Part shown: one piece after another, positions 42,001 through 48,000 of the stretch
How positions within the stretch are numbered: position 1 is the first letter of the stretch
Layout of the letters: each line of letters starts with the position of its first letter
Origin: Brachybacterium sillae
GTDB taxonomy: Bacteria > Actinomycetota > Actinomycetes > Actinomycetales > Dermabacteraceae
Length of the DNA stretch: 64,000 nt
Direction of reading: 5' to 3'
NCBI RefSeq assembly: GCF_025028335.1
Contig: NZ_JAFEUW010000001.1
Span: 1,302,001-1,366,000, forward strand
Made by a program: the position numbers

Positions 42001-45000
42001 TGGGAGCGGGAGCTGGAGGGCATCGTGCAGATCCGTACCCTGTTCTCCCAGGAACCGAGCAAGCTCTCCCCGTCCGTGCGGGAGCGGGCCGGGCGTCTGC
42101 CCGCTCAGGACCCGGAGGGGAACATCCGTCGGGCGTTCGCGATCAGCGGGTACCCGGGCGCGGTGCTGCTGGGCGCCGACGGCATGACCGCCGGCGGTCC
42201 CGTGGTCGGTGGCGAAGGCGTGCGGCAGTTCGCCGAGGAGATCATCGAGCAGATCCGCGAGGCCCGCGCCGCCGGGGAACTGCCCGAACCCGCCCCGGAG
42301 GCGACCCCGGGCAGTGAGCGGTCAGCGGCCGGTCAGGCCTGAGCGCACCAGCCCCGCCGCGAGCAGATCCGCCACCGCGGAGTCGACGAACTCCCGGCTG
42401 CGAGGGTGGGCACCGATCTGCGCCACCAGCCGGGCGTCGAGCTGGTCCTCGGTGGCCGGGCCGCTCTCCTGCAGCAGGGACCACAGCGCCGCCCCCAGAC
42501 CGGTGACGGTGCTGACCTTCCCCCGGGCGAGCACCAACAGGGCGTCCTCGACGAACAGGGCCTGGGTGAAGGGGCAGATGTGCAGCAGCCTCTCCCCCTC
42601 GGCGGGACCGGCGGCCAAGGGGGGCAGATCCTCGGCGCTCTGCCCGTCGACGAGCTCGACCTCCTCCACCAGCGGCGCAGGAGCCTGCTCCAGCAGGCGT
42701 GAGAGGTGCTCGGATTCGGAGTAGACGACCTCCAGGGCACCGCCGACGGACTGCAGCAGGCGGCACAGGGTGCCCAGCGGGTCCGGCACCCGCCAGGCGG
42801 ACGAGGACTGCTCGATGATCCGCGGCAGCGCCTGCACCAGGGGAACGCGGCGCACCGTGTCCTCCTCGGGCAGGTCCTCCGGGAGGGGCCGCCCGCCCAG
42901 GGCGGCGGATCCGGGTCGGCCCGGGCGGGGTGGGGCGTTCCGGTCGCGCCGGCGGGACAGCAGCACCACCTGGCTGGGGGCACCGATCTCGTCGGCCAGC
43001 CGCAGGTCGAGGTCGGCGAGCGCGAGGTCGTGCTTCTCCCAGCCCTCTTCGCGCACCACCCGCGAGACCGGTTTCGCGTACGCCTCGATCTCGAAGGTGT
43101 CCGGGTCGAGGATCGCCAGCTCGTCGGAGACGTACCGGCCCTCCCGGGCCAGTCGGCTCGTGGCCGTGGACTTCCCGGCACCGGAGGGGCCGATCAGCAG
43201 CACGGTGCCCAGACGCGGGTGGCGCACCACCCCGGAGTGCAGCAGCACGCGGCGGCCCAGCAGAGCGGAGAGGATCTCCCGGGTCACGTCCCCGCTGAGT
43301 GTGTACGCGACGGCGCCCGTCGCGGTGCGGTCCTCCTCCCCGCGGGCGGGCACCTCCACGGTGGCGAGGTCGGGTCGCGGATCGTCCTGGGTGATCAGCA
43401 GGTGGGCCCACAGGTCCCGCAGCCGGTCGGCGACCCCCGGGCGGGTATCGAACACCTCGACGCGGACGGGACCGCCGGGCACGTCGAGCCGCAGCACGAC
43501 CGGGGTGGCGTCGGCGCTCATGCCGCGCCTCCCTTCTGCTCCTCGGCGGTCACGACACCCAGCCGCGCCATCAGCGGCAGGAACTCCTCGACGATCTGTT
43601 CGGCGTCGTCCGGGGCATCGGGGACGTACGTGCGCAGCCGCCGCGTGAGCTCCGCCGCGTCGAGCGGTTCCCCGGCCTCCGCCAGCACATCCAGCAGCAG
43701 CGGGCCGATGCCCTCCAGCCGTCCGATGGGACCGTCGGGCATGGGGGCGATCCAGCGTCCGCCCTGCGGGTCGTCCTCCCAGGCCACGAGGGCCGCGCGG
43801 TACCGCATCACGGCACGCTCGCCTGCACCAGACGGCCGGTGCCTCCGGCGCGCAGGGGGCCGTCGACGGCTCCGAGGAAGAGGGCCTCACCGCCGTGCAG
43901 GGTGCGGCGCCCGGCGTCGGTCTCGACCAGCAGCTGGCCGTCAAGCGCCAGGAGGATCCGCGGCCCGGAGCCCGGCACCCGGTGGCGGGGCTGGAAGCGG
44001 CCGCGGCCGTCCTCCAGGGTGATCATCGACAGCTCGAAATCGTCGGTGGGGGCGTAGTAGGCGGCGGTGGTGGCCGTCAGATGCTCGGGCGCCACCCGCA
44101 GCGGCGGCGCCGCCACCACGGAGACGCATTGCAGCATCTCGTCGGCGTCGACCTTCTTCGGGGTCAGGCCCGCCCGCAGCACGTTGTCGGAACTGGCCAT
44201 GATCTCCACCCCGAGGCCGTCGAGGTAGGCGTGGATGGCTCCGGCCGGCACGTACATCGCCTCTCCGGGCTGCAGCGTCACCGGGTTCAGCAGCAGTGCC
44301 GCCACCACCCCGGGGTCACCGGGGAAGTTCTCGTGCAGCGTCGCGACGATGCGGTCGATCCGTGGCGAGGGCGAGGTGCCGGCGGCGAGACGGCTGGCGC
44401 AGGCCGCCACGACCTCCTGCACCTGCGCGGCGTCGGGCCGCAGCGCCGGGGTGACGAGCATCCGGAACGCGGCGCGCATCCCGTGGGCGTTGGGGTGGGC
44501 GCGCAGCAGCCCCAGCATCCGTTCACTGACGACCGCTCCGAGGCCCTCCAGCAGCAGCGCCGCCTTGCGGGGCGTGCGGAACCCGCACAGCGCCTCGAAG
44601 GTGGTCAGGGCCAGCACCATCTCCGGCTTGTGGTTGGCGTCGCGGTAGTTGCGCTCCGGGGCGTCCAGCGGCAGTCCGGCCGCGTTCTCCGCGGCGAAGG
44701 ATTCCGCGGCGTGCTCCCGGGTCGGATGCACCTGCAGGGACAGTGGCTTCGCCGGGGCGATCACCTTCAGCAGGAACGGCAGTCGGCCGCCGAAGGCATC
44801 GGACACGGTCTCGCCCAGCAGGCGTCGGGGGTCCCGGGCGATCGCCACATCGAGGGTGCGGTCCCCCGCCACCCGGGAGGGCGCGGTCGGGTGCGCCCCG
44901 TACCAGACCTCGGCCCAGGGACGGCCGTCGGGCTCCTGCCCGAGGAAGGCGGGGAGGGCTGTCTCGGACCCCCACGCGTAGTGCTGCAGGGCACCCGTCA

Positions 45001-48000
45001 GGTCCCACATCGTCCGGATCCTCCTCCCCCCGGGGCGGTCCCTAGTATGGGCACATGCCCCGAGATGTGCATATTCCGACCGGTGTGAGGCTGCGCCTCA
45101 CCCACGCGCTGCTGGAACATCTGGCGCAGGAAGCCGGGGTGCGGGTCCTGCACGTCAAGGGAGAGGCGCTGGACCCGGTCCTCGCGCGGGGCCGTGGGAC
45201 CTCCTCCGACAATGACCTGCTGGTGGACCCGGCCGGGGTGCCCGCGATGATCGAGGTGCTCACCCGGCACGGCTGGACATTGATGACGCAGTTCGCCTTC
45301 GGCAGCGTGTTCGCGCACGCCGCCACCTACTACCACCCGAGCTGGGGCACCGTGGACCTGCACCGCTCCTACCCGGGCCTCGATCGCGACCCCGTCGCCA
45401 CCTTCGAGTGGATGTGGGAGCACCGCGAGCAGCGGGAACTCGGTGGCGTCGCCTGCGCGGTGCCCGACCTGACCGGCCAACGACTGATCCTGCTCACCCA
45501 TGCGGCGCGGGACGCCCTGGGGCGCCGTCCGCATGACGTGCGCGTGGCCTGGGAAGAGCTCACCCCCGCTGAACGCGCGGAGCTGGATGACATCGCCGAC
45601 CGGCTGGGTGCGAGGGTCCCGATGGCCTACGCGACGGGCCGACCGGAGCGGGCCGCGGGACGGCCGGGAGAGCACACCTGGCTGGCGTTGATGCGCGAGG
45701 AGAATCCGACGCTGATGTGGATCGCCCAGCTGCGGGACGCCCGCGGGCTGCGCGGCCGCGCGTCGGTGTTGGCGGCGGCTATGCATCCGAATCCCGATCG
45801 GCTAGCGATTAGCCTCGGCCGGAAACCGACGCCGCAGGAGCTGCGCCGGGAGTCGGTGGTGCGGTGGGGCCGGGCTGCGCGGCGTCTGAGCTCGGTGGCA
45901 CGGGCGAGGTGGGCGCAGCAGATACCGGGCCGCGGGAGCTCCCGCCGATCCTGAAGTCGTGGGGGCGCGCGCCGCCAGCACGTTCGTGGGCCGCGAGGGC
46001 GCGGACCACCCGGGCACGGGCATCACGCTGGCGGGCCCAGCGGTACAGCGCCAGGCCGACGACGGTGCCGAGCACCGCCCCGAGAGTGTTCGTGACGACG
46101 TCCCCGATATCCGGGGTGCGGGTGCCGATGCCCGACTGGTAGATCTCCACGGTGCTGCTGAGGGCGAGCCCCAGCGTCGGCCACCACCATCGCGGCAGCA
46201 GAGCGGCGAGTGCCGCGAACGGTGGGATGAACAGCAGCACGTTGGCGAAGGCGGCGAACATCTCGGGGGTGAGGCCGGTGATCGGCAGCACCGTCACCAC
46301 GCGCACCCAGATGGCGACGTTCAGCCGGTTCACCGCCCAGCCGTCGCTGGCGAGAAGCAAGACCGCAGCGGCCACGGGGTAGGTGAGCAACAGGGCGACG
46401 GCGGCCAGGCGCAGGGCCCGCAGACGCGGTCCGGAGCTGAAGGCGCGGGACTGCTGGTCGGGCATCTCAGTACGCCCCGGAGGGCGCGAGCACGGCCCGG
46501 ACGGTGCGCAGCAGGATCTGCATGTCCTGCGTGAACGACCAGTTGTCGACGTAGTAGAGGTCCAGGCGCACGGTCTCGTTCCACGAGAGGTCACTGCGGC
46601 CGGAGACCTGCCACAGGCCGGTGATCCCGGGGCGGACGGTGAGGCGGCGGCGGGCATCGTCGTCGTAGGCGTCGACCTCATTGGGCAGCGCCGGGCGTGG
46701 GCCCACCAGGCTCATGTCCCCGCGCAGCACGTTCCACAGCTGCGGCAGTTCATCCAGCGAGTAGCGGCGCAGGAACCACCCGGCCGGGGTGATGCGGGGG
46801 TCGTCGGCCATCTTGAACATGACGTCGTTGCCGCGATCCTGCCCGCCCTCGGCGAGCATCCGCTTCAGACGTTCCTCGGCGTCGGTGACCATGGAGCGGA
46901 ACTTCAGAAACTCGAAGGGCTCGCCGCCGCGGCCCACGCGCTGCTGCCGGAAGATGATCGGGCCGCCGTCGGTGAGCTTCACGGACAGGGCGATCACCAG
47001 CAGCAGCGGGGACAGCACCAGCAGCAGACCGGCGCTGGCGACGATGTCGAACAACCGCTTGGACCACTTCAGCGAGGCGGTGGCCCGCGGAAGGTCCATG
47101 TGGACCAGCGGAAGACCCGCCACGGGGCGCATGCGCACGCGGTCGCTGGCGACCTCCGTGAGAGCGGGCACCACGATCACGTCGATCGCGAGGTCCTCCA
47201 GCTGCCAGGCGGTGCGGCGAAACTCCTCGGCACTGGCGGCAGACCCGGCGGTGAACAGCAGAACGGCGGGGCGTTCGCGGCGCACCAGCTCCAGCAGATC
47301 CGTCTCATCGCCGAGGATCGGGTAGGGGCAGTCCAGGCAGCTCGTCGCATCACCCGGGGGCACGATCACACCGGTGATCTCGTACCCCAGCCAGGTCTCG
47401 CGCTGCAGGGTGCTGGCGATCCCGGAGATATGCGGGAGAGTGCCGACGGCCACCACGGCCTGGCGGAAGTGGCCCCGGGTGCGGGAGCGGTTGATAATCA
47501 GCCGCCCGATGTACCGGTTGAGCAGCAGCAGCACCGGGCCGACGAGGAAGAACACCACGAAGTAGGCACGGGAGAGCTCGATGCCCATGAGGTACATGGC
47601 GGTACCGGTGATACCGGCCGCCGCGAGGCTCGCGTGCAGCACGTTGCGGAAGATCTCCGGCCCCGAGGTGAGCAGGCGCGCGGAGTAACCGCCGAACAGG
47701 GAGATCGCCGCCAGCCACGCGGCCAGCAGGATCCAGGAACCGACCGCGACATTCTCAGAGAGGTCACCGGCGTGCCCCAGTCCGGGAACGGACTGGCGCA
47801 GCACGTACGCCAGGAGCATCGCCAGGCTGAGCATGAGGAGGTCCGCCGCCACCAAGCAGCCCGCCGCCAGACGCCGCAGGTGACGGATACGGTCGAAACT
47901 GGAGAAGCGCTGATCGGGGAGTACACCCTGCACGGAGGCGGGGTCCACGGCTCCGTTCGCCGACGGCGACGCCACGGCATCGTCGATCACTGCCACGGAG

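What a model noticed while it worked through the whole genome (the two positions that open the first line are those of the whole stretch)
42322..45954. RRE-guided kinase/nucleotidyltransferase system that modifies a family of exported proteins marked by an RR..WxxP leader [...]
An HprK-like P-loop kinase with a PqqD-like tail (g01198), a stand-alone PqqD/RRE protein (g01199) and an NTP_transf_5 enzyme (g01201) sit in the exopolysaccharide locus, and ten scattered loci for otherwise unrelated secreted proteins share a 30-aa leader RRxxxxGxxWxxP...APAxA-x-S whose presence across genomes tracks these enzymes. The RRE likely binds the WxxP motif as lasso RREs bind YxxP, and kinase plus nucleotidyltransferase phosphorylate and glycosylate the conserved Ser before Tat export. 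This would be RiPP-type leader logic applied to large folded surface proteins, would name the substrates of the orphan 'HPr-rel-A'-like enzymes, and would give a portable modification tag.
Evidence so far: Leader loci on C1: g00523 (603488), g00525, g00847, g00929, g01498, g01513, g01716, plus three mis-called or frameshifted ones near 815100, 1111340 and 580680; all ten have Ser two residues after AxA, though the seed regex did not ask for it. Family: leader in 30 of 67 genomes, kinase in 26 of 67, all 26 among the 30, 0 of 37 leader-less; patchy within the genus (23 and 19 of 54). Order sample: leader in 11 of 100 genomes from 7 families, 10 of them with several copies; kinase (7) or NTase (9) hits only in those 11 and cover 10 of them, 0 of 89 others; looser cut finds the kinase in 3 more carriers. 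Leader genes lie inside the kinase/NTase/Wzc locus in 5 of 6 fetched relatives. g01198 hits T [...]
(Added by a program. Inside this text positions count along the whole contig: contig position 1,302,001 is position 1 of the stretch shown here. "Call 12" and the like, gene names such as g00115 and contig names such as C1 are that model's own, and its searches are not shown. The text may have been shortened before it was handed on; [...] marks where a part breaks off. The agent that wrote the report below was given it as the finding of a first reader that could run no searches.)

Follow-up and report, generated by a model that had tools for sequence, protein, structure and literature searches.

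The report
Export signal doubling as modification tag
This bacterium has ten scattered, otherwise unrelated genes that start with one near-invariant export-signal-like tag, and across related genomes the tag travels with a kinase, a nucleotidyltransferase and two peptide-binding domains, which likely phosphorylate and then decorate a fixed serine on these proteins before their predicted export.

Summary
Observation confirmed and extended. The window encodes an HprK/PEPCK-fold kinase with a C-terminal RRE, a stand-alone RRE and a PF14907 nucleotidyltransferase at the edge of a capsule locus. Ten leader loci (four damaged) lie elsewhere on C1. Family: leader 30/67, kinase 26 and NTase 27, all among the 30, but only about five independent contrasts (not significant). 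Order sample: 19 of 20 carriers have both enzymes; 12 have a leader gene within about 2.5 kb of the kinase. A profile that stops before the serine still recovers Ser at W+17 in 140/149 hits. Variant leaders move the RR but keep W-to-Ser at 17-18. W and P sit at -16/-13, as Y and P do in the LPP family (Popov 2026), the closest known system. It is not an LPP: there is no SipW-type peptidase, and it has twin-arginine leaders on folded, Ig-like cargo. New here: each enzyme appears to have its own RRE, and a MauE-thioredoxin accompanies Cys-paired cargo. The scan had noted the same logic on other DNA at least eight times; I found it in no paper.

The parts
42322..43521 (-). HprK/PEPCK-fold P-loop kinase (about residues 1-285) with a C-terminal RRE (about 310-396). 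His95, Walker A Lys117 and the acidic pair Asp133-Glu134 are invariant in 18 homologues
   Evidence: pLDDT 88; PEPCK Z14.3, HprK Z10; TbiB1 Z9.2, TfusB1 Z8.4; TIGR04352 35 bits vs cut-off 200
43518..43811 (-). Stand-alone RRE (PqqD fold), 'LPxGP' class that follows the NTase in other families. It keeps the helix-3 Phe; LppB's Tyr-binding Asp70 is replaced by Ile
   Evidence: pLDDT 94.7; TbiB1/TfusB1 TM about 0.6-0.67 but E>0.001; LppB 9x8z E=0.008
43808..45010 (-). manA, phosphomannose isomerase. It is coupled to the RRE gene but also present in non-carriers, so probably the host gene at the insertion site
45055..45954 (+). NTP_transf_5 (PF14907) nucleotidyltransferase, PsmN/LppN-like; HxKG, SxDxD and DxHR motifs are invariant in 19 family members
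   Evidence: (45.8 bits vs cut-off 31.2)
41179..42342 (+). MauE-thioredoxin fusion (5 TM, CxC and CGPC), likely facing the cytoplasm. A probable accessory for Cys-paired cargo; fused to the kinase in G043
40598..41182 (+). LMW protein-tyrosine phosphatase (Wzb-like), absent between manA and MauE in non-carriers; likely partner of the Wzc at C1:1385.9 kb
45809..46465 (-). VanZ-like membrane protein (start approximate), found in exactly the 27 family genomes that have the NTase; physically linked, so not independent evidence
46467..48062 (-). WecA/WcaJ-type priming sugar transferase at the start of a capsule/EPS locus that runs to Wzc about 39 kb away (start approximate)

Best explanation
The three genes likely form a cytoplasmic modify-then-export pathway: an RRE would grip the WxxPxV part of a predicted twin-arginine signal peptide, the HprK-type kinase would phosphorylate the serine 17 residues after the Trp, the nucleotidyltransferase would likely cap that phosphate with a sugar, and the folded protein would then leave through Tat and be cut at AxA. 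The product would be a mature protein that starts with one residue followed by the modified serine. Shown: gene identities and folds, the ten leaders, the fixed W-to-Ser distance, co-occurrence, operons in relatives, TatA/TatC and two LepB genes in the genome. Inferred from LPP and pseudomycoidin: RRE binding, Ser phosphorylation (about 0.7), sugar capping (about 0.45). Inferred from sequence: Tat export and cleavage (about 0.75), one RRE per enzyme (about 0.55), MauE-Trx forming cargo disulfides on the cytoplasmic side (about 0.4).
For: Leader: R-25, R-24, W-16, P-13, P-4 and S+2 are invariant and gap-free in 35 of 35 aligned family leaders (three irregular ones were left out, see the Against line). 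Ser is at W+17 in 140 of 149 library hits found with a profile ending at -1, against 9% background; 4 more have Thr. Ser is at W+17 in 45 of 53 distinct hits outside the family. Ruler: variant leaders beside more distant kinases have RR 15-17 residues before W instead of 9, yet Ser stays at W+17 (four) or W+18 (one). LPP has Y-16, P-13 and phosphorylated S3 (PMC13381572, sections 7, 8). Position -11 is V/I/A/L, matching [Y/W]xxPx[LVIFA]. Controls: three weak family hits in kinase-less genomes are ordinary Tat signals without WxxP or Ser+2; none of about 7 other non-lipoprotein Tat-like signals in G000, picked by eye, has WxxP. Co-occurrence: family 26 and 27 of 30 vs 0 of 37; order 19 of 20 carriers have kinase and NTase vs 1 strong kinase and 1 weak NTase in 168. 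Linkage: a leader gene lies within about 2.5 kb of the kinase in 12 of 19 order carriers, with tandem arrays of 3-7 leader genes behind kinase-RRE, and within 10 kb in 10 of 26 family genomes. manA and MauE are 16-401 bp apart in 30 of 30 kinase-less genomes examined. No lasso cyclase or B2 peptidase was found in G000, so the enzymes have no lasso substrate there.
Against: Nothing biochemical was tested. Within the family the pattern reduces to 5 independent pairs (4 concordant, 0 discordant, p=0.125). Leader without either enzyme: G012, G014, G022 (99-100% complete; PF14907 also not found) and G195; their leaders keep W, P and Ser. Kinase without leader or NTase: G198; loci L018 and L019 have kinase+RRE with no standard leader within 10 kb. 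Six of 10 weak-kinase loci examined showed no leader of any form. VanZ tracks the NTase just as perfectly, so co-occurrence alone cannot separate substrate from fellow traveller of a capsule module. Left out of the 35: one leader with a one-residue insertion, one with W changed to R, one with a two-residue deletion. Two variant leaders in G518 have Ser at W+19 and W+20. The fused RRE lacks the helix-3 Phe of lasso/LPP RREs. LppN was inactive in the LPP study. Four of ten own cargo genes are damaged.
Confidence: 0.62

Rival explanations
1. The enzymes serve capsule/EPS synthesis (sugar or lipid-carrier phosphorylation and activation). The leader is only a lineage-specific Tat signal on surface proteins that travel with the same capsule module.
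For: The genes sit in a capsule locus with Wzb-like phosphatase, WecA, flippase-like ABC and Wzc. VanZ shows the same 27/67 pattern. Four complete genomes keep intact leaders without the enzymes.
Against: It does not explain two RRE domains, the exact WxxP-to-Ser ruler, Ser in 94% of unbiased hits, or kinase-RRE-leader operons in five other families. Ordinary Tat signals of the same family lack these features.
Confidence: 0.12
2. Modification happens as proposed, but RR is part of the recognition tag and export or cleavage is not by Tat/LepB (for example by the MsbA-like ABC transporter, as LppD in LPP).
For: An MsbA/PglK-like ABC lies at 50719-52656 and near several family loci. The own leaders give no TIGR01409 hit at E<=0.1. 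The h-region is weak (mean hydropathy 1.3-1.4) and holds W and two Pro.
Against: S-R-R-x-h-h-K/R matches the Tat consensus (recalled), with RR in 149 of 149 hits. The RR-to-W distance varies between subfamilies while W-to-Ser does not. A-x-A at -3/-1 is a LepB-type site. Cargo is folded, median 144 aa. TatA and TatC are present.
Confidence: 0.13
3. The RRE binds the leader only as a Tat proofreading chaperone, and the kinase/NTase modify another residue or merely use nucleotide to release the substrate; Ser+2 is needed for cleavage or folding.
For: Signal-peptide chaperones of the TorD/DmsD kind are a precedent (recalled). No acceptor residue was tested.
Against: Homologous kinases phosphorylate Ser in LPP and pseudomycoidin (PMC13381572 section 7; PMC6993621 section 7). 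The acidic pair equivalent to PsmK D158/D159 is retained as Asp-Glu (equivalence inferred). LPP core substitutions did not impair cleavage (section 11).
Confidence: 0.1

Closest known systems
Linear polyphosphorylated peptides (LPP; lppA-K-B-S-D-N) of Bacillota, Popov et al. Nat Commun 2026, PMC13381572
   Same: Discrete RRE + HprK-like kinase + uncharacterised NTP transferase in capsule loci, no cyclase. Aromatic-x-x-P at -16/-13 from a signal-peptidase-type cut. Invariant Ser just after the cut. Conserved leader with variable C-termini. The stand-alone RRE profile hits LppB.
   Different: Trp instead of Tyr; twin-arginine n-region and AxA site; no SipW-type peptidase; Ser at +2, not +3; substrates scattered genome-wide (10 here) and mostly folded 100-500 aa proteins; RRE fused to the kinase plus a second RRE; Actinomycetota; MauE-Trx accessory.
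Pseudomycoidin / paeninodin lasso-peptide tailoring pair PsmK + PsmN (PMC6993621)
   Same: HprK-type Ser kinase followed by an NTase-fold enzyme needed for +162 Da on phospho-Ser; WxxP leaders read by a B1 RRE.
   Different: No lasso cyclase or B2 peptidase in this genome; the acceptor would be an internal Ser near the new N-terminus, not the C-terminal Ser.
NCBIfam 'HPr-rel-A system' (TIGR04352 kinase, TIGR04353 PqqD-like)
   Same: Best named family hit of both the kinase and the RRE.
   Different: Far below cut-offs (35/200 and 13.4/35 bits); a distant actinobacterial branch. No paper holds these names in the library.
Tat proofreading chaperones (TorD/DmsD-type) and methylamine dehydrogenase MauE/MauD (both recalled, no call)
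   Same: A cytoplasmic protein binds a twin-arginine signal to allow maturation before export; a MauE-like membrane protein plus thioredoxin serve a disulfide-rich exported protein.
   Different: The binder here is an RRE, the predicted maturation is Ser phosphorylation, and MauE and thioredoxin are one polypeptide.

Membership tests
LPP | Discrete RRE | tested here: met
LPP | HprK-like kinase and NTP transferase in the cluster | tested here: met
LPP | Archaeal-type (SipW-like) signal peptidase in the cluster | tested here: not met
   TIGR02228: one hit at 28.9 bits, under cut-off 51.85, on the LepB gene at C1:2.18 Mb
LPP | YxxPxVLxHQxIxFETxxS precursor motif | tested here: not met
   WxxP...PAxA-x-S with twin Arg; only the -16/-13 register and the Ser are shared
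LPP | MsbA-like exporter in the cluster | tested here: inconclusive
   ABC at 50719-52656 scores as MsbA/PglK under cut-offs and may be the glycan flippase
LPP | Precursor genes inside the cluster | tested here: inconclusive
   none in G000's cluster; within 10 kb in 10 of 26 family genomes and within about 2.5 kb in 12 of 19 order carriers
LPP | Ser (poly)phosphorylation of the precursor | not testable with these tools
   needs MS
Phosphorylated lasso peptides (paeninodin/pseudomycoidin) | Macrolactam synthetase C | tested here: not met
   PF00733: no match in G000, 99.99% complete
Phosphorylated lasso peptides (paeninodin/pseudomycoidin) | B2 cysteine peptidase | tested here: not met
   PF13471: no match
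HPr-rel-A system | TIGR04352 and TIGR04353 above cut-off | tested here: not met
   35/200 and 13.4/35 bits
Tat substrates | S/T-R-R-x-h-h-K n-region, weak h-region, AxA site (consensus recalled) | tested here: met
Tat substrates | Tat translocase in the genome | tested here: met
   TatC over cut-off, TatA next to it
Tat substrates | Match to the TAT_signal profile | tested here: inconclusive
   no PF10518 hit in 146 proteins; TIGR01409 only E=0.049 on a variant leader; weak TIGR02811 hits
Tat substrates | Tat-dependent export | not testable with these tools
   needs tatC mutant or RR-to-KK test

The most novel reading that the evidence does not exclude
A third way to hold proteins at the actinobacterial surface, beside sortase and lipoprotein anchors. 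The RRE acts as a Tat proofreading chaperone, and the phospho-Ser at the new N-terminus is activated by the NTase and joined by a phosphodiester to the capsule polysaccharide made by the neighbouring locus. This would tether a hypervariable set of Ig-like proteins that lack TM, LPxTG and lipobox anchors, and the 27-residue tag would be portable to any folded protein.
Probability: 0.17. Interest if true: 0.9.

Novelty: new variant of a known kind. Interest (0 to 1): 0.66.

Why it matters
If right, RiPP leader logic is used for a genome-wide protein modification pathway in which the export signal is also the enzyme-docking tag. It gives substrates to orphan HprK-like/PF14907/PqqD cassettes. It gives a common property to at least 1,568 unannotated protein clusters that databases auto-name 'amino acid oxidase' or 'transcriptional initiation protein Tat'. 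It also offers a short tag for site-specific N-terminal phospho- or phosphoglycosylation of secreted proteins, and a route to the open question of what LppN/PsmN-type enzymes do.

Tried and rejected
Complex prediction of kinase-RRE with the leader was not available, so there is no structural test of binding. Sequencing runs: none was listed for the locus, so no expression data and no read check of the frameshifts. An assembly-error check timed out; its partial output showed 0 of 21 conserved places split by a frameshift, weak support for real decay. MauE-Trx as a core component: rejected within the family (58 of 67 genomes); kept as an accessory because outside the family 10 of 11 hits are in leader carriers. 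manA as evidence for a mannose donor: rejected; it is present in non-carriers and not adjacent in other families. Lasso or SipW-dependent pathway: rejected. Family co-occurrence as a statistical proof: rejected after the tree test (57 of 68 genomes, those with manA/MauE fetched; quick tree). Phylum sample: leader in 5 of 300 (2 from the order, 1 strong outside it with kinase and NTase, 1 short variant 4 kb from a kinase, 1 false hit); kinase and NTase were not run on the whole phylum sample. No solved relative of the NTase or leader was found by sequence. The VIA search of the stand-alone RRE did not run; Foldseek gave only E>0.001 rows. The loose regex was useless in 71% GC six-frame translation (842 hits). 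Literature searches that found no description of this Tat-leader system: and a term search of the LPP supplements (no 'twin-arginine', 'MauE' or 'Brachybacterium'). Subscription papers and bioRxiv supplements are not covered.

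
Full report
Anatomy. The finding spans three genes at the edge of a capsule locus in a 71% GC genome. The kinase's named relatives are Brachybacterium and Devriesea proteins, so the genome is likely Dermabacteraceae (inference). On the minus strand, manA (43808-45010), a 97-aa ORF (43518-43811) and a 399-aa ORF (42322-43521) overlap by their stop and start codons. A PF14907 nucleotidyltransferase (45055-45954; 45.8 bits, cut-off 31.2) diverges from manA. A Wzb-like phosphatase and a MauE-thioredoxin fusion converge on the kinase. VanZ, a WecA-type transferase, glycosyltransferases and an MsbA/PglK-like ABC follow, with Wzc about 39 kb on.

Enzymes. The 399-aa model (pLDDT 88) matches PEPCK and HPr kinases in its N-terminal part (Z 14.3 at rmsd 4.0 over 246 residues; Z 10.0-10.3). 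Residues 311-395 match the lasso RREs TbiB1 (Z 9.2, rmsd 2.5, 81 aligned) and TfusB1 (Z 8.4). His95, the Walker A motif and Asp133-Glu134 are invariant in 18 homologues; their match to HprK catalytic residues is recalled. The 97-aa protein folds as an RRE (pLDDT 94.7). Foldseek ranks TbiB1 and TfusB1 near the top but only at E>0.001. Its profile hits LppB at E=0.008, aligning Phe74 with a conserved Phe and the Tyr-binding Asp70 with Ile, which fits a Trp leader (PMC13381572, section 8 and passages). The two RREs are homologous but form two classes: one is fused to or directly behind the kinase; the other follows the NTase in four distant loci and lies just upstream of it in a fifth. Both proteins score far under the HPr-rel-A cut-offs.

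Leader. Ten loci on C1, none in the window, carry it (RR at 580670, 603952, 606536, 815102, 959493, 1032277, 1111345, 1675085, 1689382, 1908791). Six look intact, three have single frame breaks and one is cut by an IS. In 35 aligned family leaders R-25, R-24, W-16, P-13, P-4 and S+2 are invariant without gaps. I left out three irregular leaders and three weak hits that proved to be ordinary Tat signals without WxxP or Ser in kinase-less genomes. It found 1,568 clusters at E<=0.001 among 1.84 billion proteins. Of the best 150, one was a repeat artefact; 140 of the other 149 have Ser at W+17 and 4 have Thr, against 9% background. Outside the family 45 of 53 distinct hits have it; four of the rest have Ser one residue later, three are truncated or lack W, and one is false. 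Mature parts have a median of 144 aa. The 137 long enough to compare fall into 85 BLAST clusters, favour even Cys counts (98 even non-zero, 19 odd, 32 none) and almost never show an anchor. Four of 146 proteins had any Pfam hit, none over cut-off. One own cargo resembles Ig-like sandwiches in the ESM Atlas (TM about 0.6).

Co-occurrence. Family (67 genomes): leader 30, kinase 26, NTase 27, all enzymes within the 30. G036's kinase likely falls in an assembly gap. G012, G014 and G022 have leaders only. G049 has fragmented enzymes and one leader with a deletion. In 30 of 30 kinase-less genomes examined, manA and MauE are 16-401 bp apart, so the RRE-kinase block is cleanly absent. On a manA+MauE tree of 57 genomes each trait changes 6 times; 5 independent pairs give 4 concordant and 0 discordant, p=0.125, not significant. 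Order sample (188 genomes outside the family, >=90% complete): leader in 20 from 5 families, and 19 of them have a strong kinase and an NTase; G195 has neither. Among the other 168, one has a strong kinase (G198), 11 a weak one, and one a weak NTase. Seven genera contain both carriers and non-carriers, and in all seven the enzymes follow the leader (sign test p about 0.016 if genera count as independent; my arithmetic). These searches score a capped number of candidates per genome, so misses are possible. A leader gene lies within about 2.5 kb of the kinase in 12 of 19 order carriers, with arrays of 3-7 leader genes behind kinase-RRE in four genomes. VanZ shows the same 27/67 pattern as the NTase, a reminder that a capsule module travels too.

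Ruler test. I examined 10 of the 11 weak-kinase genomes. Four have a variant leader within 1 kb of the kinase. There RR lies 15-17 residues before W instead of 9, yet Ser stays at W+17 (four leaders) or W+18 (one). Two leaders in G518 give +19 and +20; six loci show nothing. The distance that is held is W to Ser, not RR to Ser, as expected if an RRE positions the acceptor.

Accessory. MauE-Trx is in 58 of 67 family genomes, so it is not core. Outside the family, 10 of 11 hits are in carriers, and in G043 it is one reading frame with the kinase. Among sampled carriers, cargo has two or more Cys in 12 of 13 proteins from genomes with the full fusion and 3 of 33 from genomes without (8 of 9 vs 1 of 10 genomes; few lineages, partial cargo sampling). 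Five hydrophobic segments, basic residues in loops 1 and 3 and the fusion suggest that both Cys motifs face the cytoplasm (inference), which would suit disulfide formation before Tat export.

Mechanism. TatA, TatC and two LepB genes are present. No lasso cyclase, B2 peptidase or SipW-type peptidase was found. The best reading: an RRE binds WxxPxV in the signal peptide, the kinase phosphorylates Ser+2, the NTase with its own RRE caps the phosphate, Tat exports the folded protein and LepB cuts after AxA. Every chemical and transport step is inferred.

Known systems. LPP (PMC13381572; I read the outline, passages, sections 6, 7, 8, 11 and 12, and a term search of 6 supplements) has RRE, HprK kinase, NTase, SpI and ABC in capsule loci, 35-200 aa precursors, Y-16/P-13 binding and Ser3 phosphorylation; LppN showed no activity. 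Pseudomycoidin (PMC6993621; passages and section 7 part 1 of 2) shows PsmN-dependent +162 Da on phospho-Ser. Other papers were seen only as search listings. This system works like LPP but fails two defining LPP tests. I found no paper on a Tat-leader version. Eight earlier notes of this scan describe the same pairing in other genomes; they are unchecked and I count them as no evidence.

Verdict. A real, widespread and testable variant of the LPP logic, applied to Tat-type leaders on folded proteins. Interest 0.66; new variant of a known kind.

Noticed in passing
L073:9482-12148 (G043): MauE-thioredoxin, kinase and RRE are one 889-codon frame; in G066/G067 MauE lies between the RRE and the kinase on the same strand. 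Not checked against reads.
   Followed up: partly
window 45809-46465: The VanZ-like gene overlaps the NTase 3' end by about 146 bp and occurs in exactly the 27 NTase-bearing family genomes; it may be a membrane partner of the pathway.
   Followed up: partly
L072 and L060 (G024); L054 and L196 (G015): G024 has two kinase/NTase loci, each with leader genes. G015 has a kinase+leader locus with a second manA and a divergent NTase-RRE 16 kb away, inside an otherwise leader-less clade, which suggests re-acquisition.
   Followed up: partly
L067, L068 (G049): Kinase and NTase are fragmented and the only leader has a two-residue deletion: possible joint decay.
   Followed up: partly
L004, L005, L008 (G000): Four leader genes are flanked by IS elements and one is cut by an IS; the capsule locus beyond the window holds many transposase copies.
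   Followed up: no
L230:14717-17668 (G000, about 15 kb past the window): A 984-aa fusion of cytidylyltransferase, CBS, NeuB, SAF and TIM-barrel domains: a nonulosonic-acid pathway in the capsule locus.
   Followed up: no
window 30440-32136: HipA-like kinase gene next to a HIRAN-domain gene, beside transposases.
   Followed up: no
window 2696-5587: 963-aa gene with codon bias unlike its neighbours; its N-terminus looks like a bifunctional aldehyde-alcohol dehydrogenase (recalled, not scanned).
   Followed up: no
L018, L019, L150: Kinase+RRE pairs with no NTase or standard leader within 10 kb; L018 has an atypical RR...WxxP ORF 1.7 kb away.
   Followed up: partly
P0048, P0072, P0120: P0048 and P0120 match the leader profile twice and P0072 matches internally at residue 261; possibly fused gene calls or tandem substrates.
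   Followed up: no
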